Origin: Escherichia phage FL18
Sequence record: PP400780
Length of the DNA: 64,000 nt
Direction: 5' to 3' (one strand)
Shown: positions 27,653-30,317 of the stretch, piece by piece
How the letters are laid out: each line of letters starts with the position of its first letter
Position numbering within the stretch: position 1 is the stretch's first letter
Position numbers and translations under genes: made by a program
Notes under the pieces: generated by a model
What the model was told of the DNA's origin: nothing
Seen by the model: the letters and a program-made list of their open reading frames with translations, nothing else
Database searches by the model: none

Positions 27653-27701
27653 GTTTACTTCTCCTCTAGTTGTGTTACTATAGACCTGTCAACTAGAGGA
27701 G
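27653..27701 (+). promoter_or_regulatory. PeSL (perfect 12-bp inverted repeat ctcctctagttg/caactagaggag)
   Basis: GTTTAC + TGTTACTATAG in loop; 3' arm supplies SD GAGGAG. Confidence 0.6.
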
Positions 27702-27709
27702 AAATCAAA

Positions 27710-28168
27710 ATGACTATCAATTCAGACGTTTTTATCCGCCGTAATAAACTCCGTCGAATCTTTGAAACGGAGTTCCGCAAAATAAATGCCGGTATAAAAG
27801 ATGCTGCAAAGTCTCTTGGACTACCAGGCTTTCATATCAAGTATTCTCAACATCTCTTAGATCGTGCCATCCAGAGAGAAATAGATGAGAATTACGTTTT
27901 TGAATTATTTCATAAAGTAAAAAATCATGTTAAAGAAGTTGCAGAATTTTTATCAATGCCGGCACGTCCAGATGTTGATGAAGATTTTGTCGAAGGTGTC
28001 GAATATCGCCCAGGCCGTTTAGAAATAACTGATGGAAATCTTTGGTTAGGACTTACAGTTTGTCGCGAAAATCCAGCATTCAAAATGAAGACTCTTCAAT
28101 GCAGAATGGCTATTATTAACAGTAAACGACTACCAGGAAAAGCTTCTAAAGCAGTGATTAAAATCTAG
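27710..28168 (+). CDS. hypothetical protein, possibly RegB endoribonuclease (position and size)
   Basis: 152 aa; location in tk-e interval; identity not verified. Confidence 0.35.
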   Translation: MTINSDVFIRRNKLRRIFETEFRKINAGIKDAAKSLGLPGFHIKYSQHLLDRAIQREIDENYVFELFHKVKNHVKEVAEFLSMPARPDVDEDFVEGVEYRPGRLEITDGNLWLGLTVCRENPAFKMKTLQCRMAIINSKRLPGKASKAVIKI

Positions 28169-28176
28169 AGGTAAAC

Positions 28177-28719
28177 ATGAGAAAAGCACTACTCGCTGGT
28201 CTATTTGCTCTTTCGTTATCAGCATATAGCTCCGAGCATACTTTTAGTAATGTCCAACTCGATAACTTGAATTATGCTTATCAGTTCGGGGAACAGTTTT
28301 CTAAGGACGGAAAATTTAAAACGCATGAAAATATGCATAAGAAAGGACTTGGATACATAATGGCCGCAATACTATGGCAAGAATCGTCTGCCGGTATTAA
28401 TCTTAAAGATAAGAAAGGTCACCATGTGTATGGAATGTTCCAAAATTATCTACCAACAATGAGGGCAAGAATTAACCAGCTTGGTTATAATATGACTGAT
28501 GCCCAAATTAAGAAAATGCTATCTAAGCGGTCTAATTCAGCCAGATGGGCTTATATCGAATTTTCTTATTGGTTAAATATACATAATGGGGATATAAGAA
28601 AAGCTATATCCTCATATAATGCAGGATGTAAGACAAGTGCTGGAAGTAAATATGCTTCTGAAGTCCTAGAAAAGGCTAATTACCTTAAATCAAATAAACT
28701 ACTGGAAATAAAAGAATGA
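28177..28719 (+). CDS. secreted lytic-transglycosylase-like protein
   Basis: N-terminal signal peptide; SLT-like motifs WQESS, GMFQ, SYNAG. Confidence 0.5.
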   Translation: MRKALLAGLFALSLSAYSSEHTFSNVQLDNLNYAYQFGEQFSKDGKFKTHENMHKKGLGYIMAAILWQESSAGINLKDKKGHHVYGMFQNYLPTMRARINQLGYNMTDAQIKKMLSKRSNSARWAYIEFSYWLNIHNGDIRKAISSYNAGCKTSAGSKYASEVLEKANYLKSNKLLEIKE

Positions 28720-29063
28720 CCAAAATGTTGGCTTTAATAGTTGGCTTGGTTTCATTTAACGCTCTTGCTAATACTACATATACTGATGTAACGGAGTATA
28801 CAAACAGAACGGCGTCTGATTATTGTGGTAAAAGTCGAGAGTGTAAAGTAGATTTTTCACAAAAATTGTTATATGCGTATAAAGACGGAGAAAAAGATGG
28901 GGCGTCTAGTAGGTTCAAGGCGTCTACTTTAATTAAAAGATACTATAAAAAATGGCAAATATTAGAATGCTCGGTGGCGGAACCTAAAGATAAGGCAGCA
29001 TGCAATTCTATGGTGGACCGTCTAGTTGACTCTTATACTAGAGGACTTGCAGCAAGTGATTAA
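28716..29063 (+). CDS. secreted hypothetical protein (vs position/size)
   Basis: 115 aa with signal-peptide-like N-terminus. Confidence 0.4.
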   Translation: MTKMLALIVGLVSFNALANTTYTDVTEYTNRTASDYCGKSRECKVDFSQKLLYAYKDGEKDGASSRFKASTLIKRYYKKWQILECSVAEPKDKAACNSMVDRLVDSYTRGLAASD

Positions 29064-29520
29064 AAACTATATCAAGGGCGATATTGTCGCCCTGTTTTCT
29101 AAAGGTAATAATATTGCTCACGGGTGTAATTGTTTTCATACAATGGGCGCTGGTGTGGCAGGACAATTAGCAAAGGCTTATCCAAAAATTCTGGAAGCCG
29201 ATAAACTTCAAACCGAATTCGGAGACAAGTCTAAACTCGGGACTTATTCGGTTTATGAAAAATATTTTAAGACCCATAAAGCTTATTGCTTTAATCTTTA
29301 TACACAGTTTGGGCCGGGACCTAATTTTGAGTACTCTGCTTTAATGAATTGTATAATAGAATTAAATGAATTCGGAAAGAATAAGATAACAAAGCCTGTA
29401 ATTTATATGCCAAGAATTGGTGCAGGTATTGGTGGTGGAAACTGGGATGTCATCGAAGAGATTTTAGATACGTATTCCACTAAACTAGAAATTGTGATTG
29501 TTGATTGGGAACCTAAATGA
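29056..29520 (+). CDS. macro-domain protein (ADP-ribose binding/hydrolase fold)
   Basis: GDI...AHGCNCFHTMGAGVAGQL and IGAGIGGG motifs; start codon uncertain (GTG 29056 or TTG 29026). Confidence 0.55.
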   Translation: MIKNYIKGDIVALFSKGNNIAHGCNCFHTMGAGVAGQLAKAYPKILEADKLQTEFGDKSKLGTYSVYEKYFKTHKAYCFNLYTQFGPGPNFEYSALMNCIIELNEFGKNKITKPVIYMPRIGAGIGGGNWDVIEEILDTYSTKLEIVIVDWEPK

Positions 29521-29699
29521 AATTAACTAAAGAAGAGAAAGCTAAACTGTTCGAACTTATCCATGACCTATTGGATGAACAAGCAGCCACCAATGCGTAC
29601 GATGAATATGCTCCTTTAACAGATGAAGAATATCACGCATTGATGGAATCATTTGACAGGAAAGAACAAGAACTCATTGACTACGTGAATTCACTATAA
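29517..29699 (+). CDS. hypothetical protein
   Basis: 60 aa. Confidence 0.4.
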   Translation: MKLTKEEKAKLFELIHDLLDEQAATNAYDEYAPLTDEEYHALMESFDRKEQELIDYVNSL

Positions 29700-29708
29700 G
29701 GGACTCTT

Positions 29709-30290
29709 ATGGCTAGTTTAATTTTTACATATGCCGCTATGAACGCTGGTAAGTCTGCTTCATTACTTACTGCCGCACATAACTATAAAGAACGTGGCAT
29801 GGGTGTATTAGTTCTTAAACCGGCTATTGATACTCGTGATTCAAAAGGTGAAATAGTCTCTCGTATTGGTATTCGTCAGGACGCCAATATAATTACAAAA
29901 GACATGGATATCTTTGAATTCTATAAATGGGCTGCAGCACAAAAGGATATTCACTGCGTATTTGTTGACGAAGCTCAGTTCTTAACTACTGAAAAGGTGT
30001 ATCAACTTAGTCGTATTGTTGACGTATACAATGTGCCGGTAATGGCATATGGACTACGAACAGATTTTAAAGGTAATCTATTTGAAGGTTCTCAAGCATT
30101 AATGGCTATTGCCGATAAGCTTGTTGAACTTAAAGGTGTCTGTCATTGCGGTAAAAAGGCCACAATGGTAGCTAGAGTCACGGAAGACGGACTTCCAATT
30201 ACAGATGGCAGTCAAATTGAAATTGGTGATACCGATAGATATGTGTCATTATGCCGGAAGCATTGGAACGATTTGACAGGGTTGTTATAA
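29709..30290 (+). CDS. tk: thymidine kinase
   Basis: P-loop AMNAGKSASL, zinc ribbon CHCGKKA...C; 193 aa. Confidence 0.85.
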   Translation: MASLIFTYAAMNAGKSASLLTAAHNYKERGMGVLVLKPAIDTRDSKGEIVSRIGIRQDANIITKDMDIFEFYKWAAAQKDIHCVFVDEAQFLTTEKVYQLSRIVDVYNVPVMAYGLRTDFKGNLFEGSQALMAIADKLVELKGVCHCGKKATMVARVTEDGLPITDGSQIEIGDTDRYVSLCRKHWNDLTGLL

Positions 30291-30293
30291 ATA
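30286..30293 (+). promoter_or_regulatory. late promoter TATAAATA
   Basis: exact match overlapping tk stop. Confidence 0.35.
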
Positions 30294-30317
30294 CTAATAT
30301 CTAACCAAGAGGTATAT

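What the first reader, a model, noticed from the sequence alone, without database searches (positions are those of the whole stretch)
29056..29520. Macro-domain protein next to tk
The ORF has the hallmark macro-domain glycine-rich motifs (GDI...NCFHTMGAGVAGQL, IGAGIGGG). Macro domains bind or hydrolyse ADP-ribose adducts. In a phage this could reverse host ADP-ribosylation-based defence (DarT-type toxins modify DNA) or tune the phage's own ADP-ribosyltransferases. The start codon is non-ATG (GTG or TTG), which may limit expression.
Basis: partly seen in the sequence, partly recalled or inferred. Interest (0 to 1): 0.65.

Follow-up and report, generated by a model that had tools for sequence, protein, structure and literature searches.

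The report
Phage macrodomain that counters DarTG2 defence

Summary
Window 29056-29520 (+) is a 154-aa ORF with a GTG start and a real macrodomain: it passes Pfam's Macro threshold, its AlphaFold model has pLDDT 96, and its closest folds are TARG1, Poa1p and DarG. The window is about 99% identical to phage RB69, and the ORF is the annotated gene tk.4. It is 84% identical to T4 Tk.4 and sits in the same gene order. A 2025 preprint (HIDEN-SEQ) named T4 Tk.4 AdfM: it was the only T4 gene needed to grow on DarTG2, and a clean knockout became sensitive.

What I add: the protein is not a DarG-type enzyme. The catalytic lysine of DarG, TARG1 and PhiKZ AdfM is an invariant glutamine here (Q84, 122/122 relatives). 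This matches Streptomyces SCO6735, where Q85 is essential for cleaving thymidine-linked ADP-ribose.

A 38%-identical relative (Vibrio phage Gary Adpp) is an ADP-ribose-1''-phosphate phosphatase inside an NAD+ salvage operon. A small-molecule role is therefore the main rival, but no such operon lies in this window.

The gene is already known. No biochemistry exists yet for the T-even protein. Interest is low to moderate.

The parts
29056..29520 (+). tk.4 (adfM) coding sequence: 154-aa single-domain macrodomain protein, GTG start, TGA stop
   Evidence: ORF and sequence. RefSeq RB69 tk.4 has the same coordinates by homology. Pfam Macro. 84% identity to T4 Tk.4. AF2 pLDDT 96.
29041..29063 (+). Translation start region: Shine-Dalgarno GAGGA (29041-29045), GTG start (29056-29058), and the vs stop codon TAA (29061-29063) overlapping the start (GTGATTAA)
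   Evidence: Sequence. GAGGA and the spacing are conserved in RB69, Mizar, T4, fPS-2, VR7 and IME08. Those phages have ATG except the RB69 lineage, which has GTG. An RBS is annotated in phage Mizar.
29080..29082 (+). Asp9 codon of the 'KGD' motif. By general knowledge of macrodomains this is the adenine-contacting position.
   Evidence: D or N in 121/122 relatives, and D in TARG1, SCO6735 and PhiKZ gp104. The adenine contact itself is inferred, not tested.
29119..29163 (+). H22-G23-C24-N25-C26 motif and phosphate-binding loop 1 (M30-G31-A32-G33-V-A-G). N25 is equivalent to DarG N22, PhiKZ AdfM N23 and SCO6735 N27.
   Evidence: G23, N25, C26 and G33 are invariant in alignment A1 and are the only residue seen in the 122-sequence set (N25 121/122 with one gap); H22 is 119/122. 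SCO6735 has H24-V25-C26-N27. PhiKZ N23A reduces activity (PMC13309987).
29293..29307 (+). N80-L-Y-T-Q84 strand end. Q84 occupies the position of the catalytic Lys of DarG (K80), TARG1 (K84) and PhiKZ AdfM (K78), and of the essential Gln85 of SCO6735.
   Evidence: MAFFT alignments. hhalign of A1 against SCO6735: prob 98.4%, E 4e-15, Q84 aligned to Q85. Q is present in 122/122 relatives.
29410..29445 (+). Phosphate-binding loop 2, P119-R-I-G-A-G-I-G-G-G-N-W130. TARG1 D125 corresponds to G126 here.
   Evidence: P119, I121, G122 and G124 are invariant. The same motif is IGCGLAGGTW in SCO6735.
29075..29103 (+). Conserved GC-rich hairpin (AGGGCGAU-AUU-GUCGCCCU) followed by a U-rich tract, inside codons 7-16 of tk.4. 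Possible attenuator, RNA 3'-end element or translation control. Role unresolved.
   Evidence: Terminator-like hit. An 80-nt fold has z = -2.9. The same stem occurs in five T-even genera, including one where the amino acids differ and a G.U pair becomes A-U. It is annotated 'terminator' in phage fPS-2.
28716..29063 (+). Upstream gene vs (valyl-tRNA synthetase modifier). Its stop overlaps the tk.4 start.
   Evidence: PHROG 1256, E 9.5e-35. RB69 annotation.
29517..29699 (+). Downstream gene tk.2 (DUF7438). Its ATG overlaps the tk.4 stop (ATGA).
   Evidence: Pfam DUF7438, E 1e-16. RB69 annotation.
29709..30290 (+). tk, thymidine kinase (context only)
   Evidence: Pfam TK, E 7e-57.

Best explanation
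The ORF is the RB69-lineage orthologue of T4 tk.4 (AdfM), a stand-alone macrodomain made by the phage as a counter-defence. The host toxin DarT2 attaches ADP-ribose to thymidines in single-stranded phage DNA and blocks replication. Tk.4 most likely binds the ADP-ribose and hydrolyses the bond at ribose C1'', restoring the thymine so replication can continue. It would do this with a lysine-free active site of the SCO6735 type (H22, N25, Q84 and a positioned water), not with the lysine used by DarG, TARG1 and PhiKZ AdfM. What is shown: the macrodomain fold and motifs, the orthology and conserved gene order with T4 tk.4, and the glutamine-for-lysine active site. What is shown only in T4: genetic need for the gene on DarTG2. 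[quoted passage not shown]
For: Identity and gene order:
- The window is 98.9-99.1% identical to RB69-type phages with the same gene order regB-vs.1-vs-tk.4-tk.2-tk.
- The protein is 84% identical to T4 Tk.4 over 153 aa, E 5e-103, without gaps. T4 has the same vs-tk.4 order.

Genetics in relatives:
- T4 tk.4 was the single hit in a transposon screen on DarTG2, and a clean knockout was sensitised.
- T4 lacking adfA and adfN stays DarTG2-resistant, so another factor was expected (PMC11825919).
- RB69 is reported as a DarTG1 target, and T5 and SECphi18 as the DarTG2 targets (PMC9967889). This fits an active tk.4 in RB69.

Fold:
- pLDDT is 96. The top folds are TARG1, Poa1p and DarG.
- The DarG HMM in PADLOC is the only hit, E 2.6e-8.

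Active site:
- Q84 is invariant in 122/122 relatives and aligns with SCO6735 Q85.
- SCO6735 cleaves thymidine-linked ADP-ribose on DNA, and Q85A and Q85E are dead (PMC9411070).
- All residues invariant in the family alignment are intact in this allele. There is no frameshift.
Against: - No biochemistry exists for any T-even Tk.4. The preprint itself says enzymatic removal 'seems likely'.
- The evidence is a preprint on T4, not on this phage. I could not read the original RB69/DarTG2 plaque data (LeRoux 2022 is not held).
- The protein is closer in sequence to the ADP-ribose-1''-phosphate phosphatase Adpp (38% identity, E 2e-24) than to any proven DNA ADP-ribose hydrolase. BT1257 scores E 4e-10, SCO6735 7e-5 and DarG 2e-3.
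- It lacks the extended lysine-bearing loop that the SCO6735 authors link to DNA processing: 8 residues here against 13.
Confidence: 0.68

Rival explanations
1. Small-molecule enzyme: the protein is mainly an ADP-ribose-1''-phosphate phosphatase (Adpp/Poa1p-like). It would convert the product of RES-domain NADases, or other ADP-ribose derivatives, to ADP-ribose as part of phage NAD+ economy. DNA would not be its main substrate.
For: - Vibrio phage Gary Adpp (KNV71_gp137) is 38% identical, E 2e-24. It shares the HxCNC motif and the Gln and falls in the same PHROG 335.
- Gary Adpp was shown by LC-MS to convert ADPR-1''P to ADPR, and the three-gene operon is needed to overcome aRES (bioRxiv 10.64898/2026.01.28.702374).
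- Relatives sit inside Prs-like/NAMPT-like operons in Vibrio and Acinetobacter phages.
- Yeast Poa1p is the best structural match by TM-score, 0.81.
- Databases annotate tk.4 as 'phosphatase'.
Against: - ADP-ribose is only useful to the phage if Adps and Namat are present, and neither is in this window (tblastn best E 0.48). tk.4 here sits between vs and tk.2.
- NAMPT-like hits in Escherichia phages number 189 records, against about 650 T4- and RB69-type records. None of the sampled rows was a T4- or RB69-type genome.
- The T4 knockout phenotype is on DarTG2, a DNA-modifying system.
- The Adpp-type proteins examined carry a 7-residue insertion after the Gln that Tk.4 lacks.
- The two activities are not exclusive. 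Both break a bond at ribose C1''.
Confidence: 0.15
2. Non-enzymatic antitoxin mimic: the macrodomain neutralises DarT2 mainly by binding it, or by binding its ADP-ribosylated product, rather than by hydrolysis.
For: Catalytically dead SCO6735 Q85A, DarG K80A and TARG1 K84A all inhibit DarT in vitro, and SCO6735 does so most strongly (PMC9411070). Other phage anti-DarT factors (AdfA, AdfB) act by binding or neutralising the toxin.
Against: The active-site residues, 14 of them invariant (N25, Q84 and the glycine loops), are conserved across relatives down to 38% identity. That pattern is expected for catalysis rather than for a surface that tracks a fast-evolving toxin. The protein lacks the C-terminal DarT-binding domain of DarG: it is 154 aa, and NCBIfam DarG scores 30 bits against a cut-off of 250.
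Confidence: 0.08
3. Eraser for other ADP-ribosylation: it reverses marks written by the phage's own transferases (Alt, ModA, ModB) or by other host systems acting on protein or RNA.
For: TARG1-like macrodomains, including SCO6735, also act on Asp/Glu-linked protein ADP-ribose and on uracil-linked RNA ADP-ribose (PMC9411070; PMC13036486). T-even phages encode their own transferases (general knowledge, not tested here).
Against: No genetic or biochemical evidence supports it. From general knowledge, the T4 transferases modify arginine, a linkage not reported for this macrodomain class (not tested here). In the T4 screen, tk.4 mattered only on DarTG2.
Confidence: 0.07

Closest known systems
T4 Tk.4 = AdfM (anti-DarT factor Macrodomain), HIDEN-SEQ preprint 10.1101/2025.11.20.689424
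   Same: Orthologue. It is 84% identical over the whole length with no gaps, has the same neighbours (vs upstream, tk.2/tk downstream), the same Shine-Dalgarno sequence and the same 5' hairpin.
   Different: GTG instead of ATG start. The RB69 lineage lacks tk.3, and tk.1 is elsewhere. A few loop residues differ (A32 against S, G127 against K). The function of this allele has not been tested.
Streptomyces coelicolor SCO6735 (PDB 5E3B) and its close relative Bacteroides BT1257 (2FG1/2AFC)
   Same: ALC1/TARG1-like macrodomain with Gln in place of the catalytic Lys, plus the H-x-C-N and I-G-x-G-[IL]-[AG]-G-G-x-W motifs. hhalign prob 98.4%, E 4e-15. SCO6735 cleaves thymidine-linked ADP-ribose on DNA and neutralises DarT.
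   Different: Only about 25% identical. Tk.4 lacks the 5-residue longer mobile loop with K89/K94. Tk.4 has family-specific invariant residues (C26, D49, Y82, K60). SCO6735 is a bacterial DNA-damage-regulated gene, not a phage gene.
DarG macrodomain (T. aquaticus 5M3E, M. tuberculosis 5M3I) and the chimallivirus 'AdfM' PhiKZ gp104
   Same: Same fold class (TM 0.74-0.75), same Asn (N25 = N22/N23) and same proposed substrate. PhiKZ gp104 removes ADP-ribose from a T-ADPr oligonucleotide and protects against DarTG2.
   Different: The catalytic Lys (K80/K78) is Gln here. The DarG HMM scores 31.7 bits, against 132.9 bits for PhiKZ gp104. There is no C-terminal DarT-binding domain and no DarT partner. 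The name AdfM has been given independently to two non-orthologous proteins.
Adpp of the NARP1-AP pathway (Vibrio phage Gary KNV71_gp137) and yeast Poa1p
   Same: Closest functionally characterised phage relative by sequence after T4 Tk.4: 38% identity, E 2e-24. It has the same HxCNC...Q motifs and the same PHROG 335. Poa1p has the best TM-score, 0.81.
   Different: Adpp is embedded between Adps and Namat and acts on free ADPR-1''-phosphate. It has a 7-residue insertion after the Gln. Tk.4 has no such neighbours. Poa1p has Ser, not Gln, at the key position.
Human TARG1/OARD1 (4J5R/4J5S)
   Same: Best Foldseek E-value, 1.7e-10. The loop length after the key residue is the same. TARG1 also removes thymidine-linked ADP-ribose.
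   Different: TARG1 K84 and D125 correspond to Q84 and G126 here, so the covalent lysyl-intermediate mechanism cannot apply.

Membership tests
Macro domain superfamily (Pfam PF01661) | Profile match above the curated threshold | tested here: met
   27.9 bits against gathering score 22, covering profile positions 2-117 of 118
Macro domain superfamily (Pfam PF01661) | Three-layer alpha/beta/alpha macro fold with two glycine-rich phosphate-binding loops | tested here: met
   AF2 pLDDT 96.2. The top 50 listed Foldseek PDB matches are macrodomains or serine-hydrolase designs that match the same fold. Loops MGAGVAG and IGAGIGGG are present.
T-even Tk.4 / AdfM orthologous group | High full-length identity to T4 Tk.4 | tested here: met
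   84% over 153 aa, E 5e-103, no gaps
T-even Tk.4 / AdfM orthologous group | Conserved position directly downstream of vs, in the regB-vs-tk early region | tested here: met
   Searches show vs immediately upstream in RB69, T4, VR7, IME08 and 011D4
T-even Tk.4 / AdfM orthologous group | Required for growth on DarTG2-carrying hosts | not testable with these tools
   Shown for T4 only. Needs a phage knockout and plaque assay.
DarG antitoxin (type II TA, NCBIfam NF048014 / PADLOC DarG) | Catalytic lysine at the end of the central strand (Taq K80) | tested here: not met
   Gln84 is in that column, and Q is found in 122/122 relatives
DarG antitoxin (type II TA, NCBIfam NF048014 / PADLOC DarG) | C-terminal DarT-binding domain; full-length profile score above the cut-off | tested here: not met
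   The protein is 154 aa and matches only model positions 4-148 of 338: 30.2 bits against a cut-off of 250
DarG antitoxin (type II TA, NCBIfam NF048014 / PADLOC DarG) | Encoded next to a DarT toxin gene | tested here: not met
   The neighbours are vs, vs.1, regB, tk.2 and tk
SCO6735-type (Gln-type) thymidine-ADP-ribose hydrolases | Gln at the Lys position, with the H-x-C-N motif | tested here: met
   Q84 aligns with Q85, and H22/C24/N25 with H24/C26/N27
SCO6735-type (Gln-type) thymidine-ADP-ribose hydrolases | Extended mobile loop with K89/K94 after the Gln | tested here: not met
   The loop is 8 residues, against 13 in SCO6735 and 14 in BT1257. hhalign places a 5-residue gap there.
SCO6735-type (Gln-type) thymidine-ADP-ribose hydrolases | Hydrolysis of thymidine-linked ADP-ribose on ssDNA | not testable with these tools
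   Needs purified protein and a DarT2-modified oligonucleotide
Adpp / NARP1-AP (ADPR-1''-phosphate phosphatase) | Encoded within or beside an Adps (Prs-like) and Namat (NAMPT-like) operon | tested here: not met
   No hit better than E 0.48 in the 64-kb window. The rest of the genome was not examined. Compare the Gary, Brizo and phiAbaA1 operons.
Adpp / NARP1-AP (ADPR-1''-phosphate phosphatase) | Sequence relationship to the characterised Adpp | tested here: met
   38% identity, E 2e-24, same PHROG 335. Tk.4 lacks the 7-residue insertion after the Gln.
TARG1-type glycohydrolases | Catalytic pair Lys84 / Asp125 | tested here: not met
   Q84 and G126 are in those columns. The mechanism is as described in PMC9967889.

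The most novel reading that the evidence does not exclude
T-even Tk.4 proteins may be lysine-free, glutamine-type 'C1'' hydrolases' that take two kinds of substrate with one active site: thymidine-linked ADP-ribose on phage DNA (against DarTG2) and free ADP-ribose-1''-phosphate (the product of RES-type NADases). On this reading T4 AdfM and Adpp are one enzyme family redeployed in different gene contexts. It would be mechanistically distinct from the lysine-type DarG and PhiKZ 'AdfM'. The conserved hairpin just after the start codon may gate its expression.
Probability: 0.3. Interest if true: 0.5.

Novelty: already known. Interest (0 to 1): 0.3.

Why it matters
The gene shows how T-even phages stack specific counter-measures against DNA ADP-ribosylating toxins: AdfA and AdfN against DarTG1, and Tk.4/AdfM against DarTG2. 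RB69 is known to carry a non-neutralising AdfA allele and a frameshifted AdfN (PMC11825919). By sequence, its tk.4 is fully intact.

The useful new point for specialists is that the T-even protein is not a copy of the DarG antitoxin. It has the glutamine-type active site of SCO6735, and its nearest characterised phage relative is a small-molecule phosphatase. Two unrelated sub-classes now share the name AdfM.

That makes the catalytic mechanism and the substrate range of Tk.4 a concrete question that can be tested cheaply. It does not change the overall picture, which the literature already gives.

Tried and rejected
- **Alternative starts.** TTG at 29026 (the mechanical ORF start) and TTG at 29047 were rejected. 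T4, fPS-2, VR7 and IME08 start at the codon that aligns with GTG 29056. GAGGA is 10 nt upstream of it, and only 1 nt from 29047.
- **Register of the Lys/Gln column.** The profile alignment of the family against PhiKZ gp104 put Q84 one column away from K78, in a low-confidence stretch. I did not rely on it. MAFFT L-INS-i with 122 relatives and six reference sequences, and hhalign against SCO6735, both place Q84 in the Lys/Gln column.
- **BT1257 pairwise alignment.** The ungapped phmmer alignment to BT1257 is mis-registered around this loop. It was corrected by the multiple alignment.
- **Residue-level structural superposition.** Not possible. Model coordinates are not exposed, and Foldseek output has no alignments.
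- **Original RB69/DarTG2 data.** LeRoux et al. 2022 could not be read. I used a review's summary instead.
- **Poa1p structure paper.** Not in the library.
- **Promoter scan.** Promoter-like sites were no more frequent than in shuffled sequence: 11 found against 15.1 expected. No dedicated promoter is claimed.
- **Rfam.** Nothing at the hairpin.
- **NARP1 genes.** None found in the window. The whole RB69 genome was not scanned.
- **Overall charge as a clue to DNA binding.** Uninformative: pI is 7.6 here, 5.9 for T4, 5.1 for PhiKZ gp104 and 8.7 for the Brizo relative.

Full report
**What is there.**
The window is an RB69-type T-even phage (Mosigvirus). Bases 27700-30300 are 98.9% identical to RB69 and 99.1% to two other Escherichia phages, and about 150 records cover most of the stretch at 95% identity or more. 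The ORF at 29056-29520 on the + strand corresponds exactly to RB69 gene tk.4 (RB69p113, 'phosphatase; contains A1pp phosphatase motif'). The local gene order is regB (27710-28168), vs.1 (28177-28719), vs (28716-29063), tk.4, tk.2 (29517-29699), tk (29709-30290). Pfam and PHROG hits confirm these genes. The gene is therefore two genes upstream of tk, not adjacent to it.

**Check of the observation.**
- Both quoted motifs are in the translation.
- Pfam Macro scores 27.9 bits against a cut-off of 22.
- PHROG 335 matches at E 1e-66.
- An AlphaFold2 model built on 95 relatives has pLDDT 96.2 and pTM 0.91.
- Foldseek against the PDB returns TARG1 (E 1.7e-10), yeast Poa1p (TM 0.81), Bacteroides BT1257 (TM 0.77), and T. 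aquaticus and M. tuberculosis DarG (TM 0.74-0.75).

The mechanical ORF begins at TTG 29026, but the real start is GTG 29056. It aligns with the ATG of T4, fPS-2, VR7 and IME08 tk.4. It has GAGGA 10 nt upstream and overlaps the vs stop codon (GTGATTAA, where T4 has ATGA). The 70-mer around the GTG is 100% identical in 77 phage records, so GTG is a fixed feature of this lineage. Whether it lowers expression is not known.

**What is known about it.**
The protein is 84% identical to T4 Tk.4 over its whole length, without gaps.

A preprint of November 2025 (HIDEN-SEQ, 10.1101/2025.11.20.689424) reports three things. tk.4 was the only T4 gene whose transposon insertions were lost on a host expressing DarTG2. 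A clean knockout made T4 sensitive to DarTG2. The authors named the gene adfM. They state that enzymatic removal of ADP-ribose from DNA 'seems likely' but did not test it.

This filled a gap left by earlier work, in which T4 lacking adfA and adfN was still DarTG2-resistant (PMC11825919). A review summarises RB69 as a target of DarTG1, and T5 and SECphi18 as targets of DarTG2 (PMC9967889). That fits a working tk.4 in RB69. The same Nat Commun paper shows that RB69 carries a non-neutralising AdfA allele and a frameshifted AdfN. By contrast, tk.4 here keeps every residue that is invariant in the family.

**What kind of macrodomain it is.**
DarG (K80), TARG1 (K84) and the chimallivirus PhiKZ gp104 (K78) use a lysine at the end of the central strand. 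PhiKZ gp104 was also, and independently, named AdfM. It was shown to remove ADP-ribose from a thymidine-modified oligonucleotide.

In a MAFFT L-INS-i alignment of the window protein, T4 Tk.4, 120 database relatives and reference sequences taken from PDB alignments, that column holds glutamine. Q84 is present in 122 of 122 family members. Glutamine is also found there in BT1257 and in Streptomyces SCO6735.

For SCO6735 this residue is Q85. Counting the PDB chain confirms an offset of 20, which also places H24, V25, N27, K34 and K89 correctly. SCO6735 cleaves thymidine-linked ADP-ribose on DNA and protects against DarT. It loses all activity as Q85A or Q85E. The authors propose a water-mediated mechanism in which Gln85 positions the ribose and the backbone of V25 holds the water (PMC9411070).

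Tk.4 has the matching H22-G23-C24-N25 and N80-x-x-T-Q84 motifs. The family profile aligns to SCO6735 with probability 98.4% and E 4e-15. That is better than its alignment to PhiKZ gp104 (96.2%, E 2e-9).

The DarG profile of PADLOC scores 31.7 bits for Tk.4 and 132.9 bits for PhiKZ gp104. The NCBIfam DarG model scores 30 bits against a cut-off of 250, and only its macro half is matched. Tk.4 is thus a lysine-free, SCO6735-like member of the ALC1/TARG1 class, not a captured DarG.

It differs from SCO6735 in lacking the five-residue longer, lysine-bearing loop after the glutamine. It also has its own invariant residues: C26, D49 and Y82, with K60 nearly invariant.

**A rival that comes from the family itself.**
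Homologues are found in 2798 of 50,697 phage records. In Vibrio Thalassavirus phages and in Acinetobacter phage phiAbaA1 the homologue lies beside or between a Prs-like and a NAMPT-like gene, with overlapping start and stop codons.

A January 2026 preprint (10.64898/2026.01.28.702374) shows that this macrodomain in Vibrio phage Gary (KNV71_gp137, named Adpp) dephosphorylates ADP-ribose-1''-phosphate. That compound is the product of the RES-domain defence aRES. The Adps/Namat pathway can then rebuild NAD+ from the resulting ADP-ribose.

Gary Adpp is 38% identical to the window protein (E 2e-24). It carries the same HxCNC and glutamine motifs and belongs to the same PHROG 335. It scores against the DarG profile at the same level as Tk.4, so similarity to DarG does not separate the two functions.

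Several points argue against a primary Adpp role here:
- There is no Adps or Namat in the window.
- The different gene context is conserved across T-even genera.
- Tk.4 lacks the seven-residue insertion seen in the Adpp-type proteins.
- The T4 phenotype is on a DNA-modifying system.

Both reactions break a bond at ribose C1'', so a dual activity is plausible and untested.

**Other rivals.**
Catalytically dead SCO6735, DarG and TARG1 inhibit DarT in vitro by interaction. A binding contribution therefore cannot be excluded, but the strict conservation of the catalytic residues argues for enzymology. I found no evidence that the protein tunes the phage's own ADP-ribosyltransferases.

**Verdict.**
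The gene and its role are already known. What remains open is the biochemistry: the substrate range and the glutamine-based mechanism. The small points added here are the active-site class, the collision of two different proteins under the name AdfM, and the relationship to Adpp. Interest is 0.3.

Noticed in passing
window 29075-29103 (+), inside codons 7-16 of tk.4: A GC-rich 8-bp hairpin (AGGGCGAU-AUU-GUCGCCCU) is followed by a U-rich tract. The stem is identical in Mosigvirus, Tequatrovirus, Gaprivervirus and Dhakavirus. In Krischvirus 011D4 the encoded amino acids differ (D-L-I-A for D-I-V-A), yet the stem is kept and a G.U pair becomes A-U. It is lost in Jiaodavirus. It uses GGC/GTC/GCC codons, giving 58% GC in a 36% GC gene. 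It is annotated 'terminator' in phage fPS-2. It could attenuate read-through from vs, stabilise the vs transcript end, or control tk.4 translation. No Rfam match.
   Followed up: partly
window 29056 and the matching position in public RB69-type records (H87, H90, H93): In several GenBank records of RB69-type phages, no tk.4 CDS covers the first 45 bases of the gene, although the sequence is identical there. One search shows at least one of them (PTE-Eco05) does annotate a 'Poa1p_like' protein. Gene callers probably skip the GTG and start downstream, which would cut off D9 and possibly N25.
   Followed up: no
L004 3129-6156 (Vibrio phage Brizo), L012 1629-4659 (Vibrio phage Gary), L005 967-4471 (Acinetobacter phage phiAbaA1): Relatives of Tk.4 sit inside Prs-like/NAMPT-like (Adps/Namat, NARP1) operons with overlapping start and stop codons. 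These relatives carry a 7-residue, partly basic insertion right after the conserved Gln, which might serve as a sequence marker separating Adpp-type from Tk.4-type proteins. Only three examples were examined.
   Followed up: partly
literature: PMC13309987 and bioRxiv 10.1101/2025.11.20.689424: The name AdfM has been given independently to two non-orthologous phage macrodomains: PhiKZ gp104 (Lys-type, DarG-like) and T4 Tk.4 (Gln-type). The PhiKZ paper states that no macrodomain Adf had been reported. All three characterised phage macrodomains (T4 Tk.4, PhiKZ gp104, Gary Adpp) fall in the single PHROG 335, labelled 'phosphatase'.
   Followed up: yes
window 28716-29063 (vs) and 28177-28719 (vs.1): The gene just upstream, vs, is reported in the HIDEN-SEQ preprint as the most strongly depleted T4 gene in minimal medium. 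Both vs and vs.1 begin with hydrophobic, signal-like N-termini, and vs.1 has a weak sub-threshold SLT transglycosylase match (E 0.005). They were not studied further.
   Followed up: no
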